A DNA stretch of 64,000 nt from an uncultured delta proteobacterium (GCA_963790475.1 CAWBOS010000006.1:160001-224000); one strand, 5' to 3'; counted from the first letter of the stretch, positions 15,663 through 43,263 are shown. The notes: a model not told the origin generated them from the letters alone. Numbers and translations: made by a program.

Positions 15663-16595
15663 ATGTATACAAATTTTTATAATTTAAAAGAAAGACCTTT
15701 TGAGATAACCCCCGATCCTGATTTTCTCTTCCTCAGCGAAAGTCATCGGGAAGCCTTGGCTCACTTGGTTTATTCGGCCAGAGAACGAAAGGGATTTACG
15801 GTAATTACCGGAGAAGTGGGGACAGGCAAGACCACCCTGGTCCAAGCCTTTTTAAGCCAACTTAACGGGAAGGTAAAAACAGCCTATATATTCAATCCAA
15901 AATTAACATCCATAGATTTTCTACGCTATATCTGTGAGGATTTTGGGTTGAAGGAAGAAAAACATTCTAAAGGGCAATACATCGGCCAGTTGCACAATTT
16001 TTTACTGGAGCATTACAGCCGGGATGAACAGGTGATTTTGATAATTGACGAGGCACAAAGTCTTCCTCCGGCCTTATTGGAGGAAGTTCGTCTGCTGACC
16101 AACCTGGAAACCCCCAAGAGTAAGCTTTTGCAGGTCATACTGGTTGGACAGCCGGAACTGGATACTGTCTTGAACAGTCATCAATTCCGCCAATTAAAGC
16201 AGAGGGTTAGCCTTCGCTATCACATATTTCCTTTGGACGAAGAGGACACCAGAAAGTACATTGAAAAAAGGTTGATTAGTGCCGGGGCAATAGACCCCCA
16301 TATTTTCACGGCCAAGGCCCTTGAAAAAATTTACAGCTATTCCGGGGGGATCCCCAGATTGATCAATATTATCAGTGACAATGCCCTATTGGCCGGATAT
16401 TCCGAAAGCAAGAAAATTATCGGACCTAAAATGATTAAAGAGGCCGCCCAAAAGTTGGAAAGCCGGCCGAGGTCAAAAGAAAAGAAAAGAAAACGAGTTT
16501 TGACCCGGATTCTCTTCCTGATGGTTATTATCACCCTGATCGTGATTTCTTATTGGGCTTGGCCCCGAATCGGTGGAATAACCTTTCGATTTTGA
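15663..16595 (+). CDS. ExeA/GspA-like AAA ATPase of the XrtA-associated type
   Basis: PFEITPDP, GEVGTGKT, IIDEAQ, LVGQPEL, SGGIPRLIN, C-terminal TM. Confidence 0.9.
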   Translation: MYTNFYNLKERPFEITPDPDFLFLSESHREALAHLVYSARERKGFTVITGEVGTGKTTLVQAFLSQLNGKVKTAYIFNPKLTSIDFLRYICEDFGLKEEKHSKGQYIGQLHNFLLEHYSRDEQVILIIDEAQSLPPALLEEVRLLTNLETPKSKLLQVILVGQPELDTVLNSHQFRQLKQRVSLRYHIFPLDEEDTRKYIEKRLISAGAIDPHIFTAKALEKIYSYSGGIPRLINIISDNALLAGYSESKKIIGPKMIKEAAQKLESRPRSKEKKRKRVLTRILFLMVIITLIVISYWAWPRIGGITFRF

Positions 16596-16684
16596 AAAAT
16601 GAATAAGGTATTGAATTAAAGGAAAAAGAAATAACCCGAAGAATAGAAGGATTGTAACTCGTCCGGTGTTTGAAAAATAATTAT

Positions 16685-16882
16685 TGTTCACCGCAAAGGC
16701 ACAAAGAACGCAGAGTGAATCATTATTGTTCAATCCCGTGAGAGGCGGGATTAAACAAAACAGATCTGGCCTCCAGCCAAATAATTACCTGGAGGTAGCG
16801 AAGGTTTTTTCGATTGCCGGCCTCTCACTGGCAATCGACAAAAGTACTTCTTGGCGCCCTCTGCGCCTTTGCGGTGAAAACA
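16685..16882. mobile_element. Palindromic MITE/REP-like element with two internal hairpins
   Basis: Terminal inverted repeats TTCACCGCAAAGGCACAAAG / CTCTGCGCCTTTGCGGTGAA; internal stems at 16726-16758 and 16811-16837. Confidence 0.7.
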
Positions 16883-16920
16883 GTTATTACAAAAAGATAA
16901 ATTGATAAAAGGATTGATCA

Positions 16921-17757
16921 ATGAGTCATATTTATGAGGCGCTGGAAAAAGCGGAGCAAGAGAGAAATAAACAAATGGTAAAGGAAAAAGAGATAGAGAG
17001 TCCTAGACCTTCCAAGGAGGTTATCAGCCTGCCTTCCACGCAGTTTGATGTACCCTCTTTCCCTCTTTTTCAAACAGGGTCTCTGGCCGCGGAACAATTT
17101 CGAAAACTCAGGACTTTCCTGATCAAGAAGGATCCCCTGAAAACGGTTATGGTGACCAGTGCCCTCCAGGGAGAGGGGAAAACATTTGTTGCCTCCAATC
17201 TAGCGGTCGGGATTGCCTTTGACCTCCATCTCCATGCCTTATTGGTTGACTGTGATTTAAGGAATCCTTCCCTGGGAGAACACTTTGGGCTGACCGATGG
17301 AAAAGGGCTGTCGGATTTTCTGGTAGGCGAGGAATCGATTCCCGATCTGATAAACCATACCAAACTGGAAAGACTTACCTTGATATCGGGAGGCAGCATC
17401 CCGGTTAATCCGGCTGAATTGGTGGGATCCAAGAAGATGGAGGCCATGGTTGAGGAAATCAAAAACAGGTATGACGATCGCTACATCATCTTTGACACTA
17501 CGCCAATCCTGGCGACCTCCGAACCGGAGATTTTGACCAAATTAGTGGACGGGATCATCCTGGTAGTTCGGGCCGGGTTTACCCCCAGAGAAACCGTTCA
17601 ACAGGCGATCAATCTCATAGGAAAAGAGAAACTCCTGGGGGTCATATTAAACCAGGTAGAATTTAAATCTTCGGGCCTTTTCAAAAAGTATTTCGGTTCA
17701 AATGATTATTATAATTCTTATGGATATGGATACGGTTATAGAAGAGAAAAGAAGTGA
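16921..17757 (+). CDS. BY-kinase (CpsD/CapB family tyrosine autokinase)
   Basis: MSHIYEALEKA, EQFRKLRT, Walker A GEGKT, DCDLR, DTTP, C-terminal Tyr cluster DYYNSYGYGYGY. Confidence 0.93.
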   Translation: MSHIYEALEKAEQERNKQMVKEKEIESPRPSKEVISLPSTQFDVPSFPLFQTGSLAAEQFRKLRTFLIKKDPLKTVMVTSALQGEGKTFVASNLAVGIAFDLHLHALLVDCDLRNPSLGEHFGLTDGKGLSDFLVGEESIPDLINHTKLERLTLISGGSIPVNPAELVGSKKMEAMVEEIKNRYDDRYIIFDTTPILATSEPEILTKLVDGIILVVRAGFTPRETVQQAINLIGKEKLLGVILNQVEFKSSGLFKKYFGSNDYYNSYGYGYGYRREKK

Positions 17758-17910
17758 AAGGTAAAAGGGGAAAGGTGAAAGGCAGGTTTTTCATAATTCA
17801 CATTTTACATTTAACATTTCCCCAGTCATGTTTTGCACTTTGCATTTTGAACTTTGAAATTTGAATTGTTCGGTTCTTTTAACCTTTAACCTTTTGCATT
17901 TTGCACTTAA
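17755..17910. repeat. Mixed 7-mer repeat tract/hairpin (AAAGGTG...TTTAACC; TTGCATT, TTTGAA)
   Basis: tgaaagg taaaagg ggaaagg tgaaagg ... ttttgca ctttgca ttttgaa ctttgaa ... tttaacc tttaacc. Confidence 0.8.
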
Positions 17911-17924
17911 AATTATTGGTTAGG

Positions 17925-19166
17925 ATGCTTTTTGTATCCGAAGGAGCGGTAGCTCAAGCAAAAGTCATGAAAAAGATTATTACCGGTTCAAATTTAGATG
18001 GAAAACAAGAGGCTTTGCCTGATGAGGCGGTAGGGATGACCCGTTATCAGGTGATGGAAAAAATTCCATTTGAAGTCCATCAAAAAAAGACCCTTTCGGT
18101 AGACTATAGTTGGGTTGATGATTGCTTTTTGTCTCCCGACGATTTCAGGTTGCAATTACGAAGAGAAAAACGACGGGTCGAACGTTCTTCGGCGCCTTTG
18201 TCCATTGTCCTTTTTCAACTCAATGAATCGGTATTGAGCAATAAATTTCAACTTAAGAATTTTTTGGATTCTGTCAGGACCAGGACCCGGGAAACGGATA
18301 TCAAAGGCTGGGTGGACGCAAAAACTATCGGTATGATTCTTCCGGATACCAACGGCGAAAATGTGAATAAATGCGTTAATTTGGTAACACGGGGGACTGA
18401 CCAGCGCCATTTTTCCATCATTAAAGGGAGTTTTCCTGATTCCCTTTTTGAAGAATTACTCGATGAATCAAAAACCGCCCCTGATCTTTTCCCCTTTGAA
18501 CTGGATTATATTTCAACAGGTCGGAGCGCAGCTCATTTTTTCAAAAGGTGTTTTGATATATTCGGCGCTCTGGTAGGGTTGGTCCTTTTTTCTCCGCTGA
18601 TAGCCTTGACGGCCCTGGCCATCAAGATAACTTCTCCGGGTCCCGTTATCTTTAAGCAAACCCGTCTGGGCTGCAGAGGATGCCGCTTCCCCTTTTATAA
18701 ATTCCGGTCCATGTTTGTGGAAAATGATGACCGTTGTCATAGGGAATTTGTAGCCGAGTTAATCGAGGGCAAGCATGAAGCCCTTAATCAAGGAGATAGC
18801 CAGCAGCCATGTTTTAAAATAAAAAATGATCATCGTATTACCCCGGTCGGCAGAATTATTCGCCGGCTCAGCTTAGATGAACTTCCTCAGTTCTTCAATG
18901 TCTTGAAAGGGGAAATGAGTTTGGTGGGACCAAGGCCCCCGATTCCTTATGAAGTGGAAAAATATAAACCTTGGCATCTTCGTCGAATTCTGGAAATAAA
19001 ACCGGGAATCACCGGGCTTTGGCAGGTGGATGGAAGAAGCCGGACCTCTTTCGATGAGATGGTTCGCCTCGACCTCCGTTATTTGATGACCTGGTCATTC
19101 TGGTTGGATATAAAGATTTTATTCAAAACAATCAAAGCGGTTCTGGAAACCAAAGGGGCCGTATAA
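17925..19166 (+). CDS. Priming sugar (phosphoglycosyl) transferase with N-terminal degenerate GGDEF-like domain
   Basis: KRCFDI, YKFRSM, RITPVG..SLDELPQFFNVLKGEMSLVGPRP, KPGITGLWQV; exact start uncertain. Confidence 0.9.
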   Translation: MLFVSEGAVAQAKVMKKIITGSNLDGKQEALPDEAVGMTRYQVMEKIPFEVHQKKTLSVDYSWVDDCFLSPDDFRLQLRREKRRVERSSAPLSIVLFQLNESVLSNKFQLKNFLDSVRTRTRETDIKGWVDAKTIGMILPDTNGENVNKCVNLVTRGTDQRHFSIIKGSFPDSLFEELLDESKTAPDLFPFELDYISTGRSAAHFFKRCFDIFGALVGLVLFSPLIALTALAIKITSPGPVIFKQTRLGCRGCRFPFYKFRSMFVENDDRCHREFVAELIEGKHEALNQGDSQQPCFKIKNDHRITPVGRIIRRLSLDELPQFFNVLKGEMSLVGPRPPIPYEVEKYKPWHLRRILEIKPGITGLWQVDGRSRTSFDEMVRLDLRYLMTWSFWLDIKILFKTIKAVLETKGAV

Positions 19167-19172
19167 TAAGGT

Positions 19173-19314
19173 GAGAACTTTGAAAAATGTTCAATTTTGT
19201 TCAAGGTCAAGGAAGCCGAAAATTTTAACCACAGGAATACATTTAGTATTTCGAGGATTAAAATTTGAGTCTGACGTAGAGATTGGACCAAAGGGGACGT
19301 TTTCCTAAGGTCTC
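19173..19314. mobile_element. ~140 bp MITE-like element
   Basis: Imperfect terminal inverted repeats GAGAACTTTGAAAAATGTTC / GGACGTTTTCCTAAGGTCTC and an internal palindrome AAATTTTAACC..GGATTAAAATTT. Confidence 0.65.
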
Positions 19315-19327
19315 AAGGGGGGATAAC

Positions 19328-20455
19328 ATGAAAATTGCGGTATTAGGGTGCGGTTATTGGGGCCCCAATTTGATTAGAAATTTTTATCAATTGAACAAAG
19401 TAGATGAGTTGTTTTGCTGCGATCCGGACCCGAAGAGGTTGGAGCGGGTAAAGAACCTAATACCGTCTGTCAAACCGATACAGGACTATAAAGAACTTCT
19501 GGAGATGCCTGATTTGAATGGGGTAGCCATTGCCACTCCGGTAAGGAGTCATTATCCTTTGGCCAAGGATTTTCTGGAGCATGGCAAACATGTGATGGTG
19601 GAAAAACCCCTAACCCATTCCCAGGAAAGCAGTTTGGAATTGATCAAAATAGCCGAAGAAAAAAAGCGAATCCTGATGGTGGGTCACACCTTCGAATACA
19701 CGGCCGCCGTAAACAAGATCAAAGAGATTGTTGAAAGCGGAGAATTGGGGAAAATCCTGTATGTGAGCTGTACCCGGGTCAACCTGGGGCTCTTCCAAAA
19801 TGATATCAATGTGGTTTGGGACCTCGCGCCCCATGATATATCCGTCATTCTTTATATCCTGGGGGAATTCCCGGTTTCTGTCAACTGCCAGGGGAGGGCC
19901 CATTTTAAATCAGAAGTGGAAGATGTGGCCACAACGACGCTGAATTTTAAGAACGGCTTGATTGCCTTTATACACAACAGTTGGCTTGATCCGAAAAAGA
20001 TCCGGAAAACAACCATTGTCGGAACACGAAAAATGCTGGTTTATGACGATATAGAAGTACAGGAAAAGATCAAGATATACGATAAAGGGTTGGAAATCCC
20101 GCCTTATTATGACACCTTTGCCGAGTTTCATTTTTCCTACCGCTCAGGAGATACCTACAGCCCAAGGGTTGATGAATATGAACCTCTCCGGAAACAGTGC
20201 GATACTTTTCTGGAGTGTATAAAGAAAGAGATTCATCCCCCTTCAGACGGGTATAGCGGCCTGAGGGTGGTGTCCATCCTGGAAGCCGCTTCAAAATCAT
20301 TAAAAAGGGCCGGTAAGGAAACTCCATTGCGCCTGGCCAAAGAGGAAAAAAATGTTCATTTGAACGACAAGGGCTTTCCCGTCTTCTCAAAAGTCCCGCT
20401 GAAGCCTAAGACGGAGACTTCCTTACGGGTGCTGGGAAAAAGGGGAAGTAATTAG
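19328..20455 (+). CDS. Gfo/Idh/MocA NAD-dependent oxidoreductase (nucleotide-sugar 3-dehydrogenase-like)
   Basis: GCGYWG, VEKP, WDLAPHD; ATG 19328 after GGGGGG. Confidence 0.9.
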   Translation: MKIAVLGCGYWGPNLIRNFYQLNKVDELFCCDPDPKRLERVKNLIPSVKPIQDYKELLEMPDLNGVAIATPVRSHYPLAKDFLEHGKHVMVEKPLTHSQESSLELIKIAEEKKRILMVGHTFEYTAAVNKIKEIVESGELGKILYVSCTRVNLGLFQNDINVVWDLAPHDISVILYILGEFPVSVNCQGRAHFKSEVEDVATTTLNFKNGLIAFIHNSWLDPKKIRKTTIVGTRKMLVYDDIEVQEKIKIYDKGLEIPPYYDTFAEFHFSYRSGDTYSPRVDEYEPLRKQCDTFLECIKKEIHPPSDGYSGLRVVSILEAASKSLKRAGKETPLRLAKEEKNVHLNDKGFPVFSKVPLKPKTETSLRVLGKRGSN

Positions 20456-20927
20456 ATGAAGTTGTTTACCATCGCCCCAGATGTGAAATTGGGAGAAAAT
20501 GTCAAGGTTTATAATTATGTAAATCTTTACGGCTGTGAAATTGGGGATGAGACCAGGATCGGGTGTTTTGTTGAAATACAAAAGAATGCCAAGATAGGAA
20601 AACGCTGTAAAATATCGAGCCACACTTTTATTTGTGAAGGAGTGACTATCGAAGACAATGTCTTCATCGGTCACAATGTAACTTTTATTAATGATAAGAT
20701 TTCCCAGGGCGACGAATGGGAAAGGAATACCCAAGGACGAAGAAGAGTGGGAAGTGGAACCCATAGTGGTAAAAAAAGGGGCGTCTGTCGGATCCAGCGC
20801 CACCCTCCTCAGCAAGGTAACGATCGGGGAAAACGCCATCGTCGGGGCCGGCAGTGTGGTGACCCGTGACGTTCCGCCCAACACCATCGTAGCCGGCAAT
20901 CCCGCACGCGTCCTACGTAGAATATAG
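20456..20927 (+). CDS. Hexapeptide-repeat N-acetyltransferase (WbpD/FdtC-like), +1 frameshift near 20700
   Basis: CKISSHTFICEGV..FIND joins FPRAT..VGAGSVVTRDVP..AGNPAR in the next frame. Confidence 0.85.
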
Positions 20928-20929
20928 TC

Positions 20930-21066
20930 TTTGTGGTCTCTTTGGTCATTTGGTCTATTTAGTTCCTTTGGTCTTTTAGTCTATTCAGTCAAAGGACTAG
21001 ACGACTTATAAAACCGAACAGACCAAACAGACTAAACAGACAAGACAGACCAAATAGACTAAACAG
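20930..21066. repeat. 9-mer repeat hairpin upstream of four-helix-bundle gene 1
   Basis: TTTGGTCTN array then AGACCAAAC/AGACTAAAC array running up to the start codon. Confidence 0.9.
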
Positions 21067-21432
21067 ATGACCAAAATTATTCGCTTTGAAAATCTGGATT
21101 GCTGGCAACAAGCCCGGAGATTGGTCAAGGAGATCTATAAGATTTCTAAAGGAAAAGCATTTTCAAAAGATTTCAGGTTGGTTGGGCAAATCCAAGGATC
21201 AGCAATTTCTGTAATGGCCAATATTGCTGAAGGGTTTATCCGTAAGTCGGATAAAGAGTTTATCCAATTCTTATTCATCGCTCTTTCATCTGCTGCTGAG
21301 GTTCAAAGTCATTTATATGTTGCCTTGGATCAAGACTATATCCGTGATGAGGAATTTAATACATTATATAAGCAGACTGAAGTAACAGCAAAAATGATTT
21401 CCGGATTGATCAAGTATCTCCGAAAAAAATAA
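21067..21432 (+). CDS. Four-helix-bundle protein (23S rRNA IVP/Avd-like family)
   Basis: FENLDCWQ..QIQGSAISVMANIAEG..FIQFLFIALSSAAEVQSHL. Confidence 0.9.
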   Translation: MTKIIRFENLDCWQQARRLVKEIYKISKGKAFSKDFRLVGQIQGSAISVMANIAEGFIRKSDKEFIQFLFIALSSAAEVQSHLYVALDQDYIRDEEFNTLYKQTEVTAKMISGLIKYLRKK

Positions 21433-21439
21433 TACCGTC

Positions 21440-21605
21440 CTTCAGTCTTTTTGGTCTATTTTGTCTATTCAGTCAGTAAGGCTAAGGGGCTGAAAAAACC
21501 AAAAAAACCAAAAAGACCAGATAAACCAAACGACAAAAAAGACCAAATAGACCAAACAGACTAGATGACCAAACAGACTAAACAGACGGAATAGACCAAA
21601 CAGAC
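21440..21605. repeat. 9-mer repeat hairpin downstream of four-helix-bundle gene 1
   Basis: ttggtctat tttgtctat tcagtc ... gaccaaata gaccaaaca gactagat gaccaaaca gactaaaca up to the DegT ATG. Confidence 0.9.
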
Positions 21606-22793
21606 ATGAAGATTCCTTTTTTAGATCTAAAAGCCCAATACCTCTCCATCAAACCGGAGATAGATGGCGCCCTCCAGGAAGTAATAGACGATACCGCCTT
21701 TGCCGGGGGACCTTTCGTGGCCCGGTTTGAGAAGGCCTTCGCCGAATTCTGCGGATGCCAAGAGGCCATCGGAGTGGGCAGCGGGACCGAGGCCCTGTGG
21801 ATGGTCCTGCTGGCCCTGGGCGTAGGCCCCGGCGATGAAGTCATTACCGTGCCCAACACCTTCATTGCCACGGCCGAGGCCATATCATTTTGCGGGGCCA
21901 CTCCGGTCTTTGTGGATGTCGAGGAACGCACCTGTAACCTCGATCCCAACAAACTGGAAGACTTCCTTAAAAAACAGGATAAAGGATCGAGGATAAAGGA
22001 TAAAGATGACTCCTCGAACCTCGCTCCTCAGTCCTCCGGCCTTGGCCGCTTGAAGGCCGTGATCCCGGTTCATCTTTACGGTCAGCCGGCCGATATGGAC
22101 CCCATCCTTGAATTGGCTCAAAAATACGGATTGTTTGTCGTTGAGGACGCCTGTCAGGCCCACGGTGCGGAGTATAAGGGAAAGCGGGCCGGGGTCTTAG
22201 GGTCGGCTGCCGGGTGCTTCAGCTTCTATCCCGGAAAGAATCTGGGGGCCTACGGGGAGGCCGGGGCGGTGACCACCAATGATAAAGCTCTCGCTGATCG
22301 GATCCGCATCTTCCGGGATCATGGACAGCCTAAGCGGTATTACCATGACGTCGTGGGTTGGAACGGCCGCATGGACGGGTTCCAGGGAGCGGTCCTGGGA
22401 GTAAAGCTTAAATACCTCGACGAATGGAATAAGGGAAGAAGGGAAAACGCCAAACGATATAATAAATACTTGTCTGGCATAGAGGGGATCATCCTCCCTG
22501 GGGAAGCGGACTATGCCTGCCACGTCTATCACATCTATCCCATCAGGGTTAAAAACCGGGATCGGGTCATGGAGGCCTTAGTGGAAAAAGGGATTAATTG
22601 TAACATACACTACCCAGTGCCTATCCATCTCCAGAAGGCCTATGAATTTCAGGCGCACCGATTGGGTGACTTCCCGATCTCTGAAAAAATTGCTTCAGAG
22701 CTTCTGTCCCTTCCTATGTTCCCGGAGCTGACCGAGGAACAAATCGTCTATGTGGCCGACTCATTAAAAACCATCTTGGAGGAACGAGGATAG
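21606..22793 (+). CDS. DegT/DnrJ/EryC1/StrS sugar aminotransferase with repeat-derived loop
   Basis: IPFLDL, SGTEAL, PVHLYGQ, EDACQAHG, SFYPGKNLGAYGE. Confidence 0.93.
   Translation: MKIPFLDLKAQYLSIKPEIDGALQEVIDDTAFAGGPFVARFEKAFAEFCGCQEAIGVGSGTEALWMVLLALGVGPGDEVITVPNTFIATAEAISFCGATPVFVDVEERTCNLDPNKLEDFLKKQDKGSRIKDKDDSSNLAPQSSGLGRLKAVIPVHLYGQPADMDPILELAQKYGLFVVEDACQAHGAEYKGKRAGVLGSAAGCFSFYPGKNLGAYGEAGAVTTNDKALADRIRIFRDHGQPKRYYHDVVGWNGRMDGFQGAVLGVKLKYLDEWNKGRRENAKRYNKYLSGIEGIILPGEADYACHVYHIYPIRVKNRDRVMEALVEKGINCNIHYPVPIHLQKAYEFQAHRLGDFPISEKIASELLSLPMFPELTEEQIVYVADSLKTILEERG
21976..22040. repeat. In-frame 7-mer hairpin inside DegT
   Basis: aggataa aggatcg aggataa aggataa ... tcctcga acctcgc tcctcag tcctcc. 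Confidence 0.8.
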
Positions 22794-22862
22794 AGGAAAA
22801 AGGTTCGAAGAACGAGGTTCCGAGGTAAAAGGATTAAGGTAAAAGGAGAAGGGATAAGGCAA
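22785..22862 (+). repeat. Left arm 7-mer array (AGGNNNN) before four-helix-bundle gene 2
   Basis: aggatag aggaaaa aggttcg ... aggttccg aggtaaa aggatta aggtaaa aggagaa gggataa. Confidence 0.85.
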
Positions 22863-22867
22863 AGAGC

Positions 22868-23236
22868 GTGGAATTTGAGAATTTAGAGGTTTGGAAAAGA
22901 GCGGTAAGACTGAGTGCCAATATATACAAAGAATTGGCTATGCTAAAGGATTTTGGTTTTCGCGATCAGATAACTCGGGCAGGATTATCCGTCCCAAGTA
23001 ATATTGCCGAAGGATTTGAGCGAGGGTCACAGAAAGAGTGCGTTGTATTTCTATCCTATGCCAAGGGATCCTTAGGGGAGTTGAGGACTCAGATCTATAT
23101 CGGAATGGCCATCGGCTATATTGACCAGGTTACCGGAAATGAATGGATCAAAGAAGCAAAAGAACTTGCCTCCATGTTGGGGGGACTTATAAAGACCAAA
23201 CGTAATTTTATCCAAACACAATCCAAAAGCAAATGA
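22868..23236 (+). CDS. Four-helix-bundle protein (23S rRNA IVP/Avd-like family)
   Basis: FENLEVWK..DQITRAGLSVPSNIAEGFER..FLSYAKGSLGELRTQ. Confidence 0.92.
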   Translation: MEFENLEVWKRAVRLSANIYKELAMLKDFGFRDQITRAGLSVPSNIAEGFERGSQKECVVFLSYAKGSLGELRTQIYIGMAIGYIDQVTGNEWIKEAKELASMLGGLIKTKRNFIQTQSKSK

Positions 23237-23249
23237 ATATGGCATTTTC

Positions 23250-23365
23250 ACCCTTTATCCTCGATCCTTTCTCCTTTATCCTAGAACCTCGCTCCTCAAA
23301 CCTGGTCAAACTCAACAAACCCAACCAATCCACCCAATCAGCTATCAGCAATGAGCCATGAGCTA
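23250..23365 (+). repeat. Right arm 7-mer array (NNNNCCT) followed by 9-mer and AGCTATG-type units
   Basis: ttatcct cgatcct ttctcct ttatcct agaacct cgctcct caaacct; then aactcaaca aacccaacc; then agctatc agcaatg agccatg agcta. Confidence 0.85.
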
Positions 23366-24391
23366 AGGATTATTAATCCGTTAGATATTCCCGACTGGGA
23401 TGAGCAGGTTCTTCGGCTCCCTAATTATTCTTTCTTCCACTCCGCAGCGTGGGCAAAGGTCCTTTCAGAAGCATATAAATACAAACCGACCTATTTTACC
23501 TTCTTTGAAGATAATAAGCTGACCGCTCTGTTACCCGCGATGGATGTAAACAGCATATTGACGGGCCACAGAGGAATATCACTCCCCTTCACTGATTTTT
23601 GTGAACCTATTGCAGATAGTAACCTGAATTTTCGGACTTTATTTGAACATGCAGTATCCCATGGGAAAAAAAGCGGATGGAAGTATATCGAACTTCGTGG
23701 TGGTCAGACTTTTTTACCGGACACTGTTCCATCCCAAACTTTTTTAGCCCATACCATGGACCTCTTTCCTGATGAAAAAAAAATAATGAACAACTTTCGG
23801 GACAGTACCAGGCGTAATATAAAGAAGGCTATCACCGAGGGGGTGACGGTAAACATCCTCAATACAAGGGAAGCGGTAAAAGAGTTTTGCAGATTGAACT
23901 GTCTTACCAGAAAGGAGCATGGACTGCCACCGCAGCCAGGAAAGTTTTTTCAGGCAATATATAAACACATTATATCAAAAGGGCATGGATTTGTGGCTCT
24001 TGCCTATTTTCAAGGAAAGGCCATAGCGGGAAATATCTATTTTCATTTTGGTGAAAAAGCGGTTTATAAATATGGAGCCTCAAACAAAACCTGGCAGCAT
24101 TTAAGAGCCAGCAACCTTGTGATGTGGGAGGCAATTAGGTGGTATTGTCGAAAGGGGTGTGAACAAATGCATTTCGGAAGAACCGAAGAGGATCATCAGG
24201 GGCTAAGACAATTCAAGATGGGCTGGGGGGTGCAGGAACATGCTGTCAGCTATTCAAAATATGATTTGCGAAAAGGCAATTTTGTTAAGCAAAAAAACAA
24301 GGTTACATTTTTTCAAAATTCAATTTTTTGCAGGATGCCCGTTCCTTTATTGAAAATTACCGGTTCTTTGTTTTATGGACACATGGCATAA
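23351..24391 (+). CDS. FemAB-like GNAT protein (XrtA/PEP-CTERM-associated type)
   Basis: SLPFTDFC, RRNIKKA, HGLPPQP, YKYGAS, FGRT..GLRQFKMGWG. Confidence 0.85.
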   Translation: MSHELRIINPLDIPDWDEQVLRLPNYSFFHSAAWAKVLSEAYKYKPTYFTFFEDNKLTALLPAMDVNSILTGHRGISLPFTDFCEPIADSNLNFRTLFEHAVSHGKKSGWKYIELRGGQTFLPDTVPSQTFLAHTMDLFPDEKKIMNNFRDSTRRNIKKAITEGVTVNILNTREAVKEFCRLNCLTRKEHGLPPQPGKFFQAIYKHIISKGHGFVALAYFQGKAIAGNIYFHFGEKAVYKYGASNKTWQHLRASNLVMWEAIRWYCRKGCEQMHFGRTEEDHQGLRQFKMGWGVQEHAVSYSKYDLRKGNFVKQKNKVTFFQNSIFCRMPVPLLKITGSLFYGHMA

Positions 24392-24430
24392 AGGTGCGAG
24401 GTCAATCGAATCAATGCGCGAGGGTGAAAG

Positions 24431-24688
24431 ATGATTGATAAAAATCAAATTAGATTCTTTATTCAGGACGAAATCATGAAGGAAGGGAGTCTCGATAATT
24501 TTGAGGATTCAGACTCATTGGTTGAGACAGGGATTATTGATTCTCTTGGAATTCAGATTCTGTTGGCTTTCCTTGAGCAAACTTATTCAGTTCATATTTC
24601 TGATGATGAACTAATACCGGAGAATTTTGAGACTATTGAAGCTATTTCCGAATTTGTTTCCCGTAAAATTTCAAAGTCAGGTTCTTAA
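24431..24688 (+). CDS. Stand-alone acyl/peptidyl carrier protein
   Basis: GIIDSLG phosphopantetheine motif, ENFETIEAI. Confidence 0.9.
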   Translation: MIDKNQIRFFIQDEIMKEGSLDNFEDSDSLVETGIIDSLGIQILLAFLEQTYSVHISDDELIPENFETIEAISEFVSRKISKSGS

Positions 24689-24747
24689 AGAAGATGGGTT
24701 AAGCAAGAATGAAAGTACGTTACAGATCATAAGGGAATAGATTTGCC

Positions 24748-25380
24748 ATGTTGTCCCATATTAGAATGCGTCTTTTTCATTCAGTTGAGACTATAGTTAA
24801 TAAGGGTTTCCCCTTTTTTTGTAAGGAAATTGTATTTATTAATAGAACATGTATCTTGTTAGAAAAAGGATTAAAAGGTTTTGTGCCTCCCCGGGTCAAT
24901 CGCAACCATTCCGATTTGGTATTGATTGAAATTAATTCAGATAATGTTGATAGATACTTTTTTCAATCAAGGACGAGACGTTTAAAAGCAATTGGATATG
25001 TTAAGAAAGGTTATCATGGGTATGGGATTGTTAGAGATAAAAAAATCATAGGAGATATTTGGTGTTTTATGCAAAACAGTTCTCCAAAAATTCATCCTGA
25101 CCTAAAATGGCTTGACATTAAATGCGCTCCGAATGAATGTTATTCATTTGATATGTATCTAAGTCTTGAAGAAAGAGGGGGTGGCAACTTGGCGGCTTTT
25201 CTTGAAAATGCCTTGTTTTACGATCTTCAAAGGAAAGGTTATGAGAGGATCTATGGTTACGTATGGGCGGATAACTTTCCTGCCCTTTGGGCCCATAGAG
25301 TAGTTAAATGGAAAGAGAAGAAAAAATTTGTGGTAAATCGGTTTCTAAATTTTAAAAAAAAAGCTAATAAAAGTGAATAA
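24748..25380 (+). CDS. GNAT-fold protein
   Basis: YSFDMYL..ERGGG..GYERIYGYVWADNFPA. Confidence 0.65.
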   Translation: MLSHIRMRLFHSVETIVNKGFPFFCKEIVFINRTCILLEKGLKGFVPPRVNRNHSDLVLIEINSDNVDRYFFQSRTRRLKAIGYVKKGYHGYGIVRDKKIIGDIWCFMQNSSPKIHPDLKWLDIKCAPNECYSFDMYLSLEERGGGNLAAFLENALFYDLQRKGYERIYGYVWADNFPALWAHRVVKWKEKKKFVVNRFLNFKKKANKSE

Positions 25381-25412
25381 GTGTTTTGAACCTTATCAAA
25401 TGAGGGTAAGCT

Positions 25413-26408
25413 ATGAATCAACTTGATATTCCCATGGTCCCACGACGCAAAGAAACATTACCAATAGTTTATGGAGATACTCCTTCTTTTTTGGGAGTGC
25501 CTGTTCTTGATGCAGAATCACAGCAAAAGGATTTAGATGTTATATTCATGGGTGTTCCCTGGGAGGGGACCATAACCTGGGGTTCTTTCACGGGATGCGA
25601 ACTCGCACCGCGAGTTATCAGACATGCCGCAGCCAGATATGGCGGTTTTCTTCCTGAATATGAATTAAACCTTTTTGATTATCTTAATCTTGCGGATATT
25701 GGTGATATATCGGTTAGTCCTAATACTCCCGCGGAGACCATGAAAAATATTTTTACCGCAGCTCAATCTATATATAAAAACAATAGCGTTCCCTTTACTC
25801 TTGGCGGGGACCATTCCATTAGTCCTGAGATTGTGAAAGCTTTGAGTGAATGTAAAGAGGGGGATATAGGCATAATTCATTTTGATGCCCATCTGGATAA
25901 TGCTAAGAAATTTGGAAAAGACCGTTTTCCCAGATGTGGTCCTCTTCACAGGATTGCGCAGATTCCAAAAGTAAGAAAGAAAAGTATTGTCCATGTCGGC
26001 ATAAGAGGGCCAAGGAATTCTCCATCTCAACTCGAGTATGCTCGGCAGATGGGAGCCAAGGTCTTTCATATGGGGGAGGTACGGAATCGGGGGATGGAAG
26101 CGGTTATTAGTGATGCGATTAATATTGCTCATGAGAAAACCAAACATGTCTATGTTACTATCTGCAGCGACTGTATAGACGCGGGATATAACCCTGGAGG
26201 GCCGGCAGATTTCAATGGACTTTTTCCCTATGAGTTATTCTCATCTCTTTACCAACTTGGAAAAACAGGGATATCCGGTCTTGATTATGTAGAGATTTAC
26301 CCGAATCAAGACCCTCAGTCATTTTCTGCCCATCTTGCTGCTTGGGCGATTATTTATGCGTTAGTTGGAATGGCGTCTAACAAAAAGAGTCAAAAAGGAG
26401 ATTATTAG
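25413..26408 (+). CDS. Ureohydrolase (agmatinase/arginase family), non-canonical active-site motifs
   Basis: GVPWE, LGGDHSI, HFDAHLD, VGIRG; second metal motif reads CSDCID. Confidence 0.85.
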   Translation: MNQLDIPMVPRRKETLPIVYGDTPSFLGVPVLDAESQQKDLDVIFMGVPWEGTITWGSFTGCELAPRVIRHAAARYGGFLPEYELNLFDYLNLADIGDISVSPNTPAETMKNIFTAAQSIYKNNSVPFTLGGDHSISPEIVKALSECKEGDIGIIHFDAHLDNAKKFGKDRFPRCGPLHRIAQIPKVRKKSIVHVGIRGPRNSPSQLEYARQMGAKVFHMGEVRNRGMEAVISDAINIAHEKTKHVYVTICSDCIDAGYNPGGPADFNGLFPYELFSSLYQLGKTGISGLDYVEIYPNQDPQSFSAHLAAWAIIYALVGMASNKKSQKGDY

Positions 26409-26409
26409 C

Positions 26410-27555
26410 GTGGATTTCTTGTTGAAAGACGACCAGATTAAACTAAAAGAGTCCGTCATTAATTTTGTGAAGCGTTCGCTGAATGATGGGGCTTACGAAC
26501 GCCGTAACAGCGAGGAGTTCTATTGGGATGGGTGGAAGAAATGTGCAGATTTTGGGATACTGGGGTTGCCCATGCCGCAGAAGTATGGAGGATTAGAAAT
26601 GGACTTGATGGGATGCGTGGCTGCCATGGAAGGATTCGGTTATGCTTCCAAGGATCCCGGATTGCTTTTCTCTATAAACACTCATATTTGGACTTGTGAA
26701 TTTCCCATTTTAAAGTTCGGTTCCGAAGAACAAAAAGAGAAATACCTTAGGGGGTTAATAAAAGGTTCTATAATTGGCGGACATGCAATGACCGAACCGG
26801 ATTCCGGTTCCGATGCTTTCAGCCTCAGGTGCAAAGCAATACGCGATGGCAACAAGTATATTCTTAATGGAACAAAGATGTTCATTACCAATGCACCTAT
26901 CGCCGATATTCTCCTTGTTTTTGCCCGGATCGATGATCGAAAAGGATTTGCCGGAATCTCGGTATTCATTGTGGAAAAGGATTTTCCTGGATTTTCCATC
27001 GGCAAACCGCTCAAGATGATGGGCCTCGAAGACTGTCCTCTTGGTGAAGTCATCTTGCGGGAATGCGAAGTACCCGTTGAAAACAGATTGGGGAGAGAAG
27101 GGGCAGGATCTGCGGTATTCAATTCGGAAATGGAACAAGAACGAAGCTGCCTGTTTGCCACCCACCTGGGAAGTATGGAAAAGATTCTGGAAGACTGCAT
27201 CGAATATGCCAAAACACGCCATCAGTTTGGTAAACCTATTGGGAGTAATCAATCGATTTCACATAAGATAGCCGAAATGAAGGTGCGGGTTGAAATGTCC
27301 CGACTTATTCTCTACAGGGTTGCATGGATTAAAACCATCGGTCAGCGCGCTCCTATGGAAGCTGCCATCGCTAAATTATTCATAAGCGAGAGTTATGTGG
27401 CTACATGTATGGATGCTCTTCAGATCCATGGTGCCTATGGTTATTCGAGAGAGTTTAGTATTGAAAGAAGTCTTCGGGACGCGATCGGATCAAAGATATA
27501 TTCGGGGACTTCCGAGATCCAGAGGAACATCATAGCAACTTTTTTAGGTCTTTAG
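26410..27555 (+). CDS. Acyl-CoA dehydrogenase family, L-prolyl-carrier-protein dehydrogenase-like (PltE/RedW/CloN3 type)
   Basis: WKKCADFGILGL, GLLFSINTHIW, MTEPDSGSDA, QIHGAYGY, IYSGTSEIQR; GTG 26410 after AAGGAG. Confidence 0.8.
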   Translation: MDFLLKDDQIKLKESVINFVKRSLNDGAYERRNSEEFYWDGWKKCADFGILGLPMPQKYGGLEMDLMGCVAAMEGFGYASKDPGLLFSINTHIWTCEFPILKFGSEEQKEKYLRGLIKGSIIGGHAMTEPDSGSDAFSLRCKAIRDGNKYILNGTKMFITNAPIADILLVFARIDDRKGFAGISVFIVEKDFPGFSIGKPLKMMGLEDCPLGEVILRECEVPVENRLGREGAGSAVFNSEMEQERSCLFATHLGSMEKILEDCIEYAKTRHQFGKPIGSNQSISHKIAEMKVRVEMSRLILYRVAWIKTIGQRAPMEAAIAKLFISESYVATCMDALQIHGAYGYSREFSIERSLRDAIGSKIYSGTSEIQRNIIATFLGL

Positions 27556-27576
27556 CCCCGGTTACAATAAGATTAT

Positions 27577-29190
27577 ATGTATTCATATCTTTTACACCAT
27601 CTTCTGACAAATACGGCCAGACAGAATCCGGATAAAAAGGCTGTTATCTTCAAAGATAAGTCGTTGACCTACTCAGAGCTGGATGCCCAGAGTGATCAAT
27701 TTGCCGCAACTTTGTCCGGGTTAGGCATAAGAATGGGAGACCGGGTCGGCATTATTCTCGGCAAATCCATTGAGGCCATCATCAGCATTTTTGGGATACT
27801 GAAGGCCGGAGCGGCCTATGTGCCTGTAGATTATCAGTCGCCGATGAGTCGGACACAACACATATTGAAGAATTGCGGCATCAGCGCTGTGATCTCATCT
27901 CATACAATGGCAGAGAAAATAATAAAAGACCCTGACCCGGAATTGTCTCTAAGAACAATCATAGTTACTGGAACCGACTCGCGAATCCTTGGCCATGGAG
28001 TAGGAATTAAATCGATATCTTTTGAGACGATATTGAATGAGGGAAAAAAAGATGATCCTCAAGTCGAAATGGCTGATGTCAGTCCTGCCTACATCCTGCA
28101 CACCTCCGGTTCAACGGGGTTGCCGAAGGGTGTCGTAATTTCACACCTGAACGCCCTTTCCTTTGTCAACATGGCCGCAGAGTTCTTTCACATAGGTATA
28201 GACGATAGGTTCGGCAATGTCGCGCCCCTTCACTTTGATCTTTCAGTGTTCGATATATTCGTTGCTGTTAAAGCCGGAGCGGCTATCATCTTAGTCCCGG
28301 AATATCTTACCGCTTTTCCGATAAGGTTAGCCGAGTATATAGAAAATCAGAGGATCACCGTATGGAATTCGGTTTCTTCGCTCCTATCGATGCTTGCCGA
28401 AAAAGGAGGGCTCGAAAGAGTTTCTCTGGAATCTTTGCGCATCTTACATTTTTCCGGAGAAATCCTGCCGATCAAATATCTCCGGATACTTAAGAATTGT
28501 ATGCAGAATGCGAAGTTCTATAATATCTACGGACAGACCGAAGCAAATTCCTCTGTGTACTATCAAGTCAGGGAACTCCAAGAAAATGACCATTGGAAGA
28601 TACCCATCGGCAGACCGTTTCCAAACTTTGAAGTGTTCATCATGGGGGAGGATGGCAGTGAGAAGACTGCTCCTGGCGATGAAGGGGAATTGTATGTCAA
28701 GAGCTCCACGGTAGCCATAGGTTACTGGGGCCGGGAGGAGGAAACGCGGGAGAAGTTCGTGTCAGACCCGCGAGACCTCTTCGGAAGGCAACGATGTTAC
28801 AAAACCGGAGATCTCGTCCGCATTGACGACGATGGCAATTACGTGTTCGTTGGCCGCAAGGACCACATGATAAAAAGCAGAGGCTATAGAATAGAGTTGG
28901 CGGAGATCGAGGCTGTTCTCAACAGCCACCCGCTCATTAGACAGGCCGTGGTAACAGCAATTCCTGATGAGCTAATCGGAAACAGGCTCATCGGCCACGT
29001 TTCATTAGTGGAACGAGGGGTATTGAGCAAAAATGATCTTTACAGGTTCTGCAGCAGTCCTTTGCCAAAGTATATGATACCCGGGGTTTTCAAGTTTCAC
29101 GATGGGTTGCCCTTGAGTTCAACGGGTAAGGTTAACAGAAAGGCTTTAGAAGGGCAGGACTTGAATGATTCGAAAGTAGAGGTAGGGTAA
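27577..29190 (+). CDS. Stand-alone amino acid adenylation enzyme (PltF/RedM/DltA-like)
   Basis: LKAGAAYVP, YILHTSGSTGLPKG, APLHFDLSV, NIYGQTE, YKTGD, GYRIELAEIE, STGKVNRKAL. Confidence 0.9.
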   Translation: MYSYLLHHLLTNTARQNPDKKAVIFKDKSLTYSELDAQSDQFAATLSGLGIRMGDRVGIILGKSIEAIISIFGILKAGAAYVPVDYQSPMSRTQHILKNCGISAVISSHTMAEKIIKDPDPELSLRTIIVTGTDSRILGHGVGIKSISFETILNEGKKDDPQVEMADVSPAYILHTSGSTGLPKGVVISHLNALSFVNMAAEFFHIGIDDRFGNVAPLHFDLSVFDIFVAVKAGAAIILVPEYLTAFPIRLAEYIENQRITVWNSVSSLLSMLAEKGGLERVSLESLRILHFSGEILPIKYLRILKNCMQNAKFYNIYGQTEANSSVYYQVRELQENDHWKIPIGRPFPNFEVFIMGEDGSEKTAPGDEGELYVKSSTVAIGYWGREEETREKFVSDPRDLFGRQRCYKTGDLVRIDDDGNYVFVGRKDHMIKSRGYRIELAEIEAVLNSHPLIRQAVVTAIPDELIGNRLIGHVSLVERGVLSKNDLYRFCSSPLPKYMIPGVFKFHDGLPLSSTGKVNRKALEGQDLNDSKVEVG

Positions 29191-33460: not shown

Positions 33461-33490
33461 AACTAAACTTTCACCTTAATCTTGCTTACG

Positions 33491-35371: not shown

Positions 35372-35375
35372 AACC

Positions 35376-41961: not shown

Positions 41962-43263
41962 ATGCGTCTCGATCGTCTATTAACCCTATATCTATTTGGT
42001 CCTCTGGCTCGCCTCCGCAAACCCAGGGGTCTGCGAATCCCCATCCTCATGTATCACAGTATTTCCGATGACCCGGAAACCGGCCATCCGTACTATTGGA
42101 TCAACACATCCCCGGCATGCTTCGCCGAACACATGAAATTTCTTTATGATAATGGATATCAGGTAATTCCCCTCTCAACCGCGGTCGAAATGATCCGGAT
42201 GGAAAAAACTAATTCTAAAATTCTAAATTTTAACCTCGAACCTCGAACCTCGAACCTCGAACCTGGATCGAACCTCGAACCTCGAACCTCGAACCCCGAA
42301 AAGGGATTAACCAACAAACCAAACAAACTTAACGAACTCAATAACCCAATAGACCCAATCAACCAGCCAACCAATCAATCCGATCAATTAAATGGACTGG
42401 ATAGACCAAACCAACAAAATAGACCCAATGAACTCAAGGAACCCGAAGAACCCAATGAACTCAACCAACCCAATAGACTCAAAGAACCAGAGAAACCCCG
42501 CTACGTGGTCTTAACCTTTGACGATGGCTATCTCGACTTCTACACCGAAGCCTTTCCCATCCTCCAGCAATACGGTTTCCACGCAACCGTGTTTCTTCCG
42601 ACGATCTTCATCGATGGGAAAAGACCAGGCCTTCGGGGTAAGGAGCACCTCAACTGGGATCAGGTTCGCGAACTTCGTACCGTCGGCATTACTATCGGCT
42701 CTCACACCTGCAGCCACCCACAGCTTTACGATTTGCCGTTAGATAAAATTGAGCAGGAACTCCACCGGTCAAAAGAATCAATCGAATTTCATCTGAATCA
42801 AACAACCAACAAAGAAGTTAAGCAATCAGCCCAGTCAACCAATAAGCCCAATAAACTAAATGAATCCTATGAGCTATCAGCTATGAGCTATAAGCCATTT
42901 CCACCCGATCACCCGATCACCCTGTCTTCCGTGGATTCTTTTTGTTATCCTTATAAATTTCCCGGGCAAAACAAAGCTTTTCGAACTTTGCTATCCGATT
43001 CCTTGAAGAAAACAGGCTATAACAACTGCGTTACGACGAGGATAGGATCATACAATACCGCGGAGGATATTTTGTGTATGAAACGGTTGCCTATGAATAG
43101 GGCCGACGACCATTGGCTTTTTCGTGCGAAGCTTCAGGGAGGCTATGATTGGCTTGCGTGTCTTCAATCCCTGACTAAAAAAACCAACAGGGGGAGCAGA
43201 GTTGGCCGTCCGGTAGGTCAAATGATCGAGAAAGTCCAAACAAAGGCAGGGGTAAGAGCATGA
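41962..43263 (+). CDS. Polysaccharide deacetylase (NodB/IcaB-like) with two long repeat-derived in-frame insertions
   Basis: PILMYHSI, LTFDDGY, IGSHTCSH, FCYPY; low-complexity inserts between conserved blocks. Confidence 0.88.
   Translation: MRLDRLLTLYLFGPLARLRKPRGLRIPILMYHSISDDPETGHPYYWINTSPACFAEHMKFLYDNGYQVIPLSTAVEMIRMEKTNSKILNFNLEPRTSNLEPGSNLEPRTSNPEKGLTNKPNKLNELNNPIDPINQPTNQSDQLNGLDRPNQQNRPNELKEPEEPNELNQPNRLKEPEKPRYVVLTFDDGYLDFYTEAFPILQQYGFHATVFLPTIFIDGKRPGLRGKEHLNWDQVRELRTVGITIGSHTCSHPQLYDLPLDKIEQELHRSKESIEFHLNQTTNKEVKQSAQSTNKPNKLNESYELSAMSYKPFPPDHPITLSSVDSFCYPYKFPGQNKAFRTLLSDSLKKTGYNNCVTTRIGSYNTAEDILCMKRLPMNRADDHWLFRAKLQGGYDWLACLQSLTKKTNRGSRVGRPVGQMIEKVQTKAGVRA
42208..42495 (+). repeat. 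In-frame stacked repeats: AATTCTA-type, AACCTCG x9 (7 perfect), then 9-mer array
   Basis: Directly visible; encodes NLEPRTS.. and NKPNKLNELN.. Confidence 0.92.
42795..42925 (+). repeat. Second in-frame stacked repeat insert (AATCAACC-like, AGCTATG, CACCCGAT units)
   Basis: tatgagc tatcagc tatgagc tataagc; cacccgat cacccgat caccctgt. Confidence 0.85.

What the first reader, a model, noticed from the sequence alone, without database searches (positions are those of the whole stretch)
21976..23298. Coding insert in DegT matches the arm downstream of four-helix-bundle gene 2
Seen: AAAGGATCGAGGATAAAGG (21981-21999, in DegT) is the exact 19-nt reverse complement of 23252-23270, and GAACCTCGCTCCTCA occurs at both 22016-22030 and 23284-23298. 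The insert encodes DKGSRIKDKDDSSNLAPQSS in a loop before KAVIPVH. Inference: local copying from the cassette arm, or alternative long-range pairing that would loop out ~1.25 kb.
Basis: partly seen in the sequence, partly recalled or inferred. Interest (0 to 1): 0.7.

Follow-up and report, generated by a model that had tools for sequence, protein, structure and literature searches.

The report
Translated repeat hairpin inside DegT loop
A 72-base stretch of 7-base repeat DNA, of the same kind that wraps a small neighbouring gene cassette, is read through as a floppy surface loop of a sugar aminotransferase; it is a further case of tolerated repeat DNA inside a gene, not a demonstrated RNA switch.

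Summary
The 19-nt inverted and 15-nt direct exact matches exist, never arose in shuffles, and are reciprocal best hits in the 6.34-Mb genome.

The insert (21975-22046, DegT residues 124-147) has a purine-rich and then a pyrimidine-rich run of about 7-nt units. It folds as a hairpin. It has no counterpart in solved homologues and is low-confidence in the model.

It is not a recent one-off copy:
- 116 of 120 close DegT homologues carry extra low-complexity sequence at this loop, with 7-residue periodicity.
- Several homologues have near-identical peptides.
- A same-genus orthologue with no cassette within 7.5 kb keeps part of the loop.

In related genomes the loop holds other repeat families, which also occur beside DegT or across that genome. 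In this genome, arrays within 3 kb of a four-helix-bundle cassette share its arm repeats far more often than distant arrays.

Best reading: a gene-less, in-frame member of the heptamer-repeat pool that forms cassette arms, kept similar to the neighbouring arm by DNA-level exchange. Long-range RNA pairing is feasible in energy terms, but it is untested and not conserved.

This scan found the same class on other DNA, including another DegT.

The parts
21606..22793 (+). DegT/DnrJ/EryC1 sugar aminotransferase gene (395 aa)
   Evidence: Pfam PF01041, E 1.9e-116. Closest solved homologues are 7b0d, QdtB 3frk and 2oga.
21975..22046 (+). In-frame insert, residues 124-147 (QDKGSRIKDKDDSSNLAPQSSGLG), absent from solved homologues
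   Evidence: The HMMER alignment breaks between query residues 123 and 148, where QdtB runs 123|124. AF2 pLDDT is below 50 at residues 131-145.
21976..22008 (+). Half A: purine-rich run of about 7-nt units (GGATAAA / GGATCGA), inverted match to R2
   Evidence: pair I6 (33 nt, 88%); one search score 46; TRF period 7.
22011..22035 (+). Half B: pyrimidine-rich run, direct match to the outer part of R2; pairs with half A
   Evidence: family D4 (25 nt, 88%). Hairpin (z -2.96 and -4.24).
22776..22866 (+). Left arm L2 of cassette 2; it overlaps the last codons and the stop of DegT
   Evidence: Duplex with R2 is -53.1 kcal/mol. Conserved in the G017 cassette.
22868..23236 (+). Four-helix-bundle gene 2 (H2), PF05635
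   Evidence: Pfam E 1.9e-31. The only close orthologue among 41 genomes is in G017 at 81%.
23243..23303 (+). Right arm R2: inner part complementary to half A, outer part a direct copy of half B
20922..21066 (+). Repeat arms upstream of H1 (TTTGGTCT-type run, then CAGACCAAA-type run, 9-nt period)
   Evidence: families D1 and D2 and pairs I1-I5.
21067..21432 (+). Four-helix-bundle gene 1 (H1), PF05635
   Evidence: Pfam E 1.2e-34.
21437..21605 (+). Repeat arms downstream of H1, running up to the DegT start codon
   Evidence: D1, D2, I4, I5, I7.
42232..42488 (+). Further in-frame arrays (AACCTCG about 10 units; ACCCAATGA about 7 units) inside a polysaccharide deacetylase gene (41953-43263)

Best explanation
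The insert is a gene-less, in-frame copy of the short-tandem-repeat hairpin DNA that also forms the inverted arms of PF05635 (23S-rRNA-intervening-sequence-protein type) four-helix-bundle gene cassettes. It lies in a surface loop of DegT that, in this clade of the enzyme, has long held such arrays. The arrays are translated as a disordered loop and tolerated. The contents of the loop turn over quickly: each genome's loop holds repeat families that also occur next to DegT or elsewhere in that genome. I infer that the near identity with arm R2 comes from DNA-level exchange between nearby arrays of one family, that is, gene conversion or recombination between inverted and direct repeats 1.25 kb apart, or copying linked to cassette movement. 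I do not think it reflects selection for an RNA duplex. Shown: the relatedness, the hairpin, the placement in a loop, the hot spot across the clade, and the local sharing of repeat families. Inferred: the exchange mechanism, its direction, and neutrality for the enzyme.
For: 1. The match is specific and reciprocal.
2. The insert folds alone as a hairpin: -34.7 kcal/mol, z -2.96; z -4.24, with 0 of 100 shuffles as good.
3. It is an insertion relative to solved structures and has low confidence in an otherwise good model (mean pLDDT 88; below 50 at residues 131-145).
4. 116 of 120 closest homologues have 2 or more extra residues here (median 25, maximum 95). In the 67 loops with 20 or more extra residues, residue identity at lag 7 is 26%, against 7-13.5% at all other lags (13.5% at lag 14). 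This is the signature of translated 7-nt repeats.
5. Most PF05635 genes of this genome are flanked by locus-specific inverted arms of 7-9-nt repeats.
6. In the 10-mer matrix, a loop's own flanks rank first in 4 of 5 same-family genomes and in 5 of 14 loops overall. By eye, G001, G004 and G009 loops repeat the array just upstream of DegT, and the G017 loop repeats DNA just after the DegT stop.
7. Within this genome, arrays within 3 kb of a PF05635 gene share 2 or more 10-mers with its arms in 9 of 29 cases, against 97 of 5566 for distant arrays (Fisher p 1.6e-9). A second in-frame example lies at C12:25150, next to the cassette at C12:25599-25955.
8. The H2 cassette, including its arms, is about 80% identical in G017 but sits on the other side of DegT, so the cassette and its arms move as one unit.
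Against: - Local tracking is not universal. Own flanks are not the top match in 9 of 14 loops. In L045, L122 and L053 the adjacent cassette's arms belong to a different family from the loop.
- In G001 and G017 the loop's families are spread over many contigs, so 'local' there may only mean 'same genome'.
- The 19-mer of half A (1 mismatch or fewer) is present in 8 of 21 genomes of the class, counting G000's own two copies. It is exact in G019 and twice in G017, at the 9 loci outside G000 without a PF05635 gene within 1.5 kb, and 26 nt are shared with the G000 loop. Half A and R2 could therefore each derive from a family consensus, not from each other.
- Genomes of one family are not independent, and the near/far test counts some arrays more than once.
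- Neutrality for the enzyme is not tested.
Confidence: 0.6

Rival explanations
1. Functional long-range RNA structure. In the operon transcript, half A pairs with R2 and half B with L2. This competes with the two local stems, so that processing (for example by RNase III, as for rRNA intervening sequences) or translation of DegT and H2 is coupled.
For: The A/R2 duplex is -41.8 kcal/mol and is the best 41-nt partner of R2 within 16000-29000 (-42.2, against -40.9 for the best L2 window). The swapped pairing (A/R2 plus L2/B = -77.2) is nearly equal in energy to the local pairing (A/B plus L2/R2 = -78.6). RNase III excises the hairpin-armed intervening sequence in Coxiella (PMC4990558, passages read). 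No promoter or terminator excess separates the genes.
Against: Equal energies follow from all four pieces belonging to one repeat family. Only 5 of 20 orthologous loops fold better than shuffles at z of -2 or below, and many are one-orientation arrays. There is no covariation evidence and no Rfam family. The distance is 1.25 kb, against 0.37 kb for the cassette's own stem.
Confidence: 0.12
2. Independent descent from a dispersed repeat family. The loop and R2 are both copies of a family-wide consensus array and never exchanged sequence with each other.
For: The half-A word occurs in 8 of 21 class genomes and 0 times in the reversed control. It is exact in G017 (twice) and G019, and 26 nt are shared with the loop. 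The genome holds 467 arrays of period 7-9.
Against: The half-B 15-mer is exact only at the two G000 sites, and 1-mismatch hits elsewhere are at control level. In G000 the two sites are reciprocal best hits 1.25 kb apart in 6.34 Mb. Array families are shared locally at 5 of 12 cassettes.
Confidence: 0.15
3. DNA inversion switch. The 19-33-bp inverted repeats mediate flipping of the 1.25-kb segment (the DegT 3' two-thirds plus H2), turning DegT off.
For: Inverted repeats of suitable length lie in a surface-polysaccharide locus. One low-depth contig of a relative (run X6) joins 22047 to 22785 on opposite strands.
Against: No invertase or recombinase family was found among the 54 open frames of the window that were scanned; the only mobile-element hit is a Y1 transposase-like domain at 62996-63958. 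That joint does not lie at the repeats in question, comes from another organism, and has only 36 nt on one side. The repeats are explained by the hairpin family.
Confidence: 0.04
4. Contingency (phase-variable) tract. The 7-nt units make the loop prone to frameshifts, switching DegT and hence the surface glycan on and off.
For: The units are not multiples of 3. The loops of G009 (100 nt) and G004 (155 nt) are out of frame.
Against: Here there are only about 4 imperfect units. The run X1 contig is identical. G004 has further stops, so it is a decayed gene or a poor assembly. The G000 assembly itself has at least one probable 1-nt error at 20700, so frameshifts in the draft genomes may be errors.
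Confidence: 0.07

Closest known systems
Rickettsia palindromic elements (RPE) and other intragenic MITE-like repeats
   Same: Palindromic repeat DNA inserted in frame in ordinary genes, translated, and thought compatible with the protein fold (PMC10969869, passages read).
   Different: RPEs are families of about 150 bp, each with a conserved peptide, scattered over many genes. Here the insert is 72 nt of 7-nt units, the content differs between close relatives, one loop of one enzyme clade is occupied in 116 of 120 homologues, and the repeats are shared with the arms of PF05635 cassettes.
ORF-bearing intervening sequences of 23S rRNA (Coxiella burnetii S23p; Leptospira)
   Same: The neighbouring cassettes have a PF05635 ORF enclosed by complementary termini. 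The Coxiella element has a 28-bp terminal stem and tandem heptameric repeats of variable number upstream of the ORF (PMC4990558, passages read).
   Different: The cassettes here lie between protein genes, not in rRNA. The insert itself has no ORF, lies in a coding sequence, and is translated, not excised.
Cyanobacterial STRR heptamer repeat arrays (recalled from my own knowledge and from earlier scan notes; papers seen only as a search listing)
   Same: Dispersed tandem 7-nt arrays, several families per genome.
   Different: A different phylum. Here the arrays are paired as hairpins, linked to PF05635 cassettes, and recurrent in one protein loop.
Diversity-generating retroelements (Avd, RT, TR/VR)
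   Same: PF05635 is the Avd-like fold family (family name noted in the PMC10053308 listing). A direct repeat lies in a nearby coding region, and the 3 differences in half B are all A on the R2 side.
   Different: There is no reverse transcriptase on this contig (9 matches, all on other contigs). The repeat is 25 nt with only 3 differing sites. Half A is inverted. The site is not a C-terminal variable domain.

Membership tests
RPE-like in-frame palindromic repeat | Inserted in frame in a conserved ORF and read through | tested here: met
   72 nt = 24 codons, no stop.
RPE-like in-frame palindromic repeat | Palindromic / hairpin potential | tested here: met
   z -2.96 and -4.24.
RPE-like in-frame palindromic repeat | Sits at a surface position compatible with the fold | tested here: met
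   Absent from QdtB and 7b0d; pLDDT below 50 at residues 131-145 in a model with pTM 0.88.
RPE-like in-frame palindromic repeat | Member of a dispersed family with a long conserved consensus (about 100-150 bp) and a conserved peptide | tested here: not met
   Only two related copies in G000. The shared words are 15-26 nt. Loop content differs between close relatives.
PF05635 hairpin-armed cassette (IVS-like) | PF05635 ORF between the inverted arms | tested here: not met
   The insert has arms only, with 2 nt between its halves. The neighbouring units at 22776-23303 and 20922-21605 do meet this feature.
PF05635 hairpin-armed cassette (IVS-like) | Arms built of 7-9-nt tandem units of the cassette's own family | tested here: met
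PF05635 hairpin-armed cassette (IVS-like) | Excision from RNA by RNase III | not testable with these tools
   No RNA run holds the stretch.
Diversity-generating retroelement | Reverse transcriptase next to the Avd-like gene | tested here: not met
   PF00078 has 9 matches, none on contig C6.
Diversity-generating retroelement | TR/VR direct repeats that differ at template adenines | tested here: inconclusive
   3 of 3 differences in the 25-nt half B are A in R2. This is too few sites, and half A is inverted.
Invertible segment | Inverted repeats plus a recombinase, and both orientations in reads | tested here: not met
   The repeats are present. No invertase was found among the 54 open frames scanned. 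No supporting joint at the repeats (contigs only).
Simple-sequence contingency locus | Repeat-number variation that shifts the frame | tested here: inconclusive
   Out-of-frame loops in G004 and G009. There is no population data for G000, and the X1 contig is identical.

The most novel reading that the evidence does not exclude
The heptamer arrays are attachment sites for the PF05635 cassettes. On this reading, cassettes carrying arms of a given repeat family recombine into, and hop between, arrays of the same family, in a way loosely comparable to integron attC hairpins. The DegT loop would then be an in-gene landing pad that survives because it stays in frame, and the exact 19- and 15-nt words shared with R2 would mark a recent recombination joint. 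This would account for several observations: the H2 cassette lies upstream of DegT in G017 but downstream in G000; H1 is bracketed by a duplicated hairpin (arm'-arm, gene, arm'-arm); and arrays near a cassette share its family.
Probability: 0.15. Interest if true: 0.8.

Novelty: new variant of a known kind. Interest (0 to 1): 0.45.

Why it matters
The finding links two things that are usually noted separately: translated 7-nt repeat tracts inside genes, and the repeat arms around the PF05635 genes, whose function has been unknown since they were found in rRNA intervening sequences. One enzyme loop is occupied in almost every member of a clade, and its content changes with the repeat families of the host genome. 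This offers a natural system for measuring how such DNA spreads, whether by gene conversion, by cassette hopping, or by binding of the four-helix-bundle protein to its own repeats. For annotation, it explains the hypervariable low-complexity loops and frameshifts seen in DegT genes of uncultured Thermodesulfobacteriota-type genomes.

Tried and rejected
- **DGR model.** No reverse transcriptase lies on the contig, so I rejected it.
- **Known RNA family.** Only microRNA-like matches far below the gathering scores.
- **Expression and alternative forms.** No RNA holder was listed. Only Logan contigs could be laid. The same organism (X1) covers the insert without differences but does not cover R2. 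No joint lies at the repeats. One opposite-strand joint, 22047/22785, comes from a relative (X6, depth 2.6, 36 nt on one side) and is left unexplained.
- **Conserved hairpin in the loop.** Only 5 of 20 loops have z of -2 or below, so a hairpin is not the conserved feature.
- **Metagenomic contexts.** I could not fetch the contigs of the closest metagenomic orthologues (P0004, P0007, P0015, P0021).
- **Y1 (IS200-like) transposases as a possible hairpin mobiliser.** The genome has 20 matches, one in the window at 62996-63958, with no link shown.
- **Literature.** Searches for the family names (4 papers, 3 listed), for IVS and four-helix-bundle terms, for heptamer repeats and for RPE found no description of PF05635 cassettes with repeat arms outside rRNA, nor of their link to in-frame arrays. 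Subscription journals are not covered.
- **Technical failures.** timed out and one search failed on a script error. Both were rerun.

Full report
**1. The observation**

- The 19-mer at 21981-21999 is the exact reverse complement of 23252-23270, and the 15-mer occurs at 22016-22030 and 23284-23298.
- Each pattern has exactly two matches in the window even with mismatches allowed. 0 of 100 dinucleotide-preserving shuffles gave two matches.
- Extension gives a 33-nt inverted pair at 88% (21976-22008 / 23243-23275) and a 25-nt direct pair at 88% (22011-22035 / 23279-23303).
- Local alignment scores are 46 and 35, against maxima of 27 and 22 in 300 shuffles.
- The window is G000:C6:160001-224000. 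In the 6.34-Mb genome both exact words occur only at these two sites.
- By blastn-short the loop and the arm are reciprocal best non-self hits (E 3e-4 and 0.07; everything else E above 0.29).
- A contig of run X1 covers 21715-22180 without a difference.

**2. Anatomy**

- The gene at 21606-22793 is a DegT/DnrJ/EryC1 aminotransferase (PF01041, E 1.9e-116).
- The genes at 21067-21432 (H1) and 22868-23236 (H2) are PF05635 four-helix-bundle proteins of the 23S-rRNA-intervening-sequence type.
- The window is a large surface-polysaccharide locus. It encodes export, chain-length and sugar-transferase proteins and many glycosyltransferases.
- H2 is enclosed by a purine-rich left arm L2 (22776-22866), which supplies the last codons and the stop of DegT, and a pyrimidine-rich right arm R2 (23243-23303).
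- H1 is bracketed on each side by a pair of complementary runs of a 9-nt unit (20922-21066 and 21437-21605).
- The insert is residues 124-147 (21975-22046). It has a purine-rich half A of about 7-nt units (21976-22008), two bases, and then a pyrimidine-rich half B (22011-22035).
- Half A is the complement of the inner part of R2. Half B is a direct copy of the outer part of R2.
- The insert folds on its own as a hairpin: -34.7 kcal/mol, z -2.96; z -4.24.
- No Rfam family matches, and no excess of promoter or terminator patterns separates the genes.

**3. The insert in the protein**

- Against solved structures, the alignment breaks between query residues 123 and 148, where QdtB (3frk) runs straight from 123 to 124.
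- An AlphaFold2 model built on 46 sequences is confident overall (mean pLDDT 88, pTM 0.88). It falls below 50 at residues 131-145.
- The insert is therefore an extra, probably disordered, surface loop.

**4. The loop across homologues**

- Of the 120 closest homologues (57-86% identity), 116 have 2 or more extra residues at exactly this place. The median is 25 and the maximum 95. Only 4 have the canonical spacing.
- In the 67 loops with 20 or more extra residues, residue identity at lag 7 is 26%, against 7-13.5% at all other lags (13.5% at lag 14). This is what translation of 7-nt tandem repeats gives.
- Several homologues carry peptides nearly identical to this one (DKGSRIKDKG in P0021; SNLAPRSS-type in P0004 and P0015).
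- The A/B-type loop is therefore older than the present exact identity with R2.

**5. Orthologous loci**

Synteny (sugar transferase, oxidoreductase, acetyltransferase, DegT, FemAB-like gene) holds in relatives. Cassettes and loops vary:

| Genome | Loop | Cassettes |
|---|---|---|
| G021 | none | none |
| G018 | short | none |
| G004 | long, out of frame; keeps the half-B unit | no PF05635 gene within 7.5 kb |
| G009 | long, out of frame | H1-like gene upstream |
| G017 | 204 nt | H2 orthologue (81%) upstream of DegT |
| G001 | 126 nt | contig ends in an arm-type array |

- The G000 and G017 H2 cassettes align at about 80% including both arms. The cassette and its arms therefore travel together and sit on different sides of DegT.
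- H2 has no other close orthologue in 41 genomes.

**6. Does the loop track local repeats?**

- In a matrix of shared 10-mers between each loop and each locus's flanks, a loop's own flanks rank first in 4 of 5 same-family genomes (not G004) and in 5 of 14 loops overall.
- By eye, the G001, G004 and G009 loops repeat the array just upstream of the DegT start. The G017 loop repeats DNA just after the DegT stop and shares a unit with its H2 arms.
- L056 shares a unit family with its adjacent cassette. L045, L122 and L053 do not.
- Whole-genome searches qualify 'local'. The loop families of G001 and G017 are spread over many contigs. Those of G009 are enriched locally, with 5 of 16 non-self hits within 1.2 kb. 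G004 is weak.
- Within G000, TRF finds 467 arrays of period 7-9, of which 67 lie inside long open frames.
- Arrays within 3 kb of a PF05635 gene share its arm 10-mers in 9 of 29 cases, against 97 of 5566 for distant arrays (Fisher p 1.6e-9; these counts are not independent).
- A second in-frame case lies at C12:25150, beside the cassette at C12:25599-25955.
- A third set of in-frame arrays lies in the window, in a polysaccharide deacetylase gene at 42232-42922.

**7. A caution on 'copying from the arm'**

- The half-A 19-mer (1 mismatch or fewer) occurs in 8 of 21 genomes of the class, counting G000's own two copies, with 0 hits for the reversed control.
- It is exact in G019 and twice in G017, at the 9 loci outside G000 without a PF05635 ORF within 1.5 kb. 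Two of these copies share 26 nt with the G000 loop.
- Half A may therefore reflect a family consensus.
- The half-B 15-mer is exact only at the two G000 sites.

**8. RNA pairing**

| Duplex | Energy (kcal/mol) |
|---|---|
| A / R2 | -41.8 |
| L2 / R2 | -53.1 |
| A / B | -25.5 |
| L2 / B | -35.4 |

- The loop is the best 41-nt partner of R2 within 16000-29000 (-42.2, against -40.9 for the best L2 window).
- The swapped and the local pairings are nearly equal in total (-77.2 against -78.6).
- This is expected from four pieces of one repeat family. Only 5 of 20 orthologous loops fold better than shuffles at z of -2 or below.
- No RNA run holds the stretch.

**9. Other models**

- *DGR:* no reverse transcriptase on this contig. 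The 3 differences in half B are all A on the R2 side, but three sites cannot carry the argument.
- *Inversion:* no invertase among the 54 open frames scanned and no joint at the repeats. One opposite-strand joint, 22047/22785, from a relative remains unexplained.
- *Contingency tract:* the out-of-frame loops of G004 and G009 fit this idea, but draft-assembly errors are a live alternative. The G000 assembly itself differs by one base at 20700 from the contigs of X1 and X3 (X6 shows the same 1-nt deletion one base earlier, at 20699).

**10. Comparison with what is known**

- Functionally, the insert behaves like a Rickettsia palindromic element: palindromic repeat DNA read through in frame (PMC10969869, passages). 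It lacks the long conserved consensus of that family.
- Its relatives in sequence are the arms of PF05635 cassettes. These resemble the ORF-bearing rRNA intervening sequences, which have a terminal stem, heptameric repeats and RNase III excision in Coxiella (PMC4990558, passages).
- My searches found no description of such cassettes outside rRNA, nor of their link to in-frame arrays.
- Earlier notes of this scan describe both classes on other DNA, including an in-frame heptamer tract in another DegT.

**11. Verdict**

The insert is an old, recurrent, tolerated repeat tract, not a fresh copy, and an RNA role is unproven.
- It is a new variant of a known kind, of moderate interest.

Noticed in passing
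window 20456-20927 (about 20697-20711): The hexapeptide acetyltransferase upstream of H1 is split into two overlapping frames in this assembly. Contigs of runs X1 and X3 lack one base at 20700 and those of X6 lack one at 20699, and the orthologue in G021 is in one frame (same for G004 by my frame arithmetic on the coordinates). The frameshift is therefore probably an assembly error or a polymorphism.
   Followed up: partly
window 41953-43263: A polysaccharide deacetylase gene carries four in-frame tandem arrays (AACCTCG about 10 units, ACCCAATGA about 7 units, and two shorter ones). They give peptides such as NLEPRTSNLEPGSNLEPRTS, about 0.8 kb downstream of a third PF05635 gene (41067-41432) that has no obvious arms.
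   Followed up: partly
G000:C12:25100-26830: A PF05635 gene (25599-25955) has arms of GATTGAT-type units. The same unit family lies in frame in the upstream 472-aa open frame (25150-25182, peptide SQSTINNQQSAIQ) and at the start of the downstream 938-aa open frame.
   Followed up: partly
window 20922-21605: H1 is bracketed by a duplicated hairpin (T-rich run plus CAGACCAAA run on each side). This is the arrangement expected from integration of a circle into a hairpin site. The H1-like cassette of G009 has the same layout with a different unit.
   Followed up: no
window 62996-63958: A 321-aa open frame has an IS200-like Y1 transposase domain (PF01797). The genome has 20 such matches, several of them long divergent forms. 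Enzymes of this kind act on single-stranded hairpins, but no link to the arrays was shown.
   Followed up: partly
window 32648-38834: Inside the glycan locus lie phosphosulfolactate synthase (ComA, PF02679), 2-phosphosulfolactate phosphatase (PF04029) and a LarA-N-domain protein among methyltransferases. This hints at a sulfolactate- or lactate-type decoration.
   Followed up: no
window 22047 / 22785: One low-depth contig of a relative (run X6) joins these two places on opposite strands, that is, from just after the loop to just before arm L2. Unexplained.
   Followed up: no
G019:C18:69199 and G017:C22:469536 (L230, L232): The half-A array occurs right after the stop codon of the same conserved gene in two genomes. 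In G017 a complementary run follows it, forming a gene-less hairpin.
   Followed up: partly
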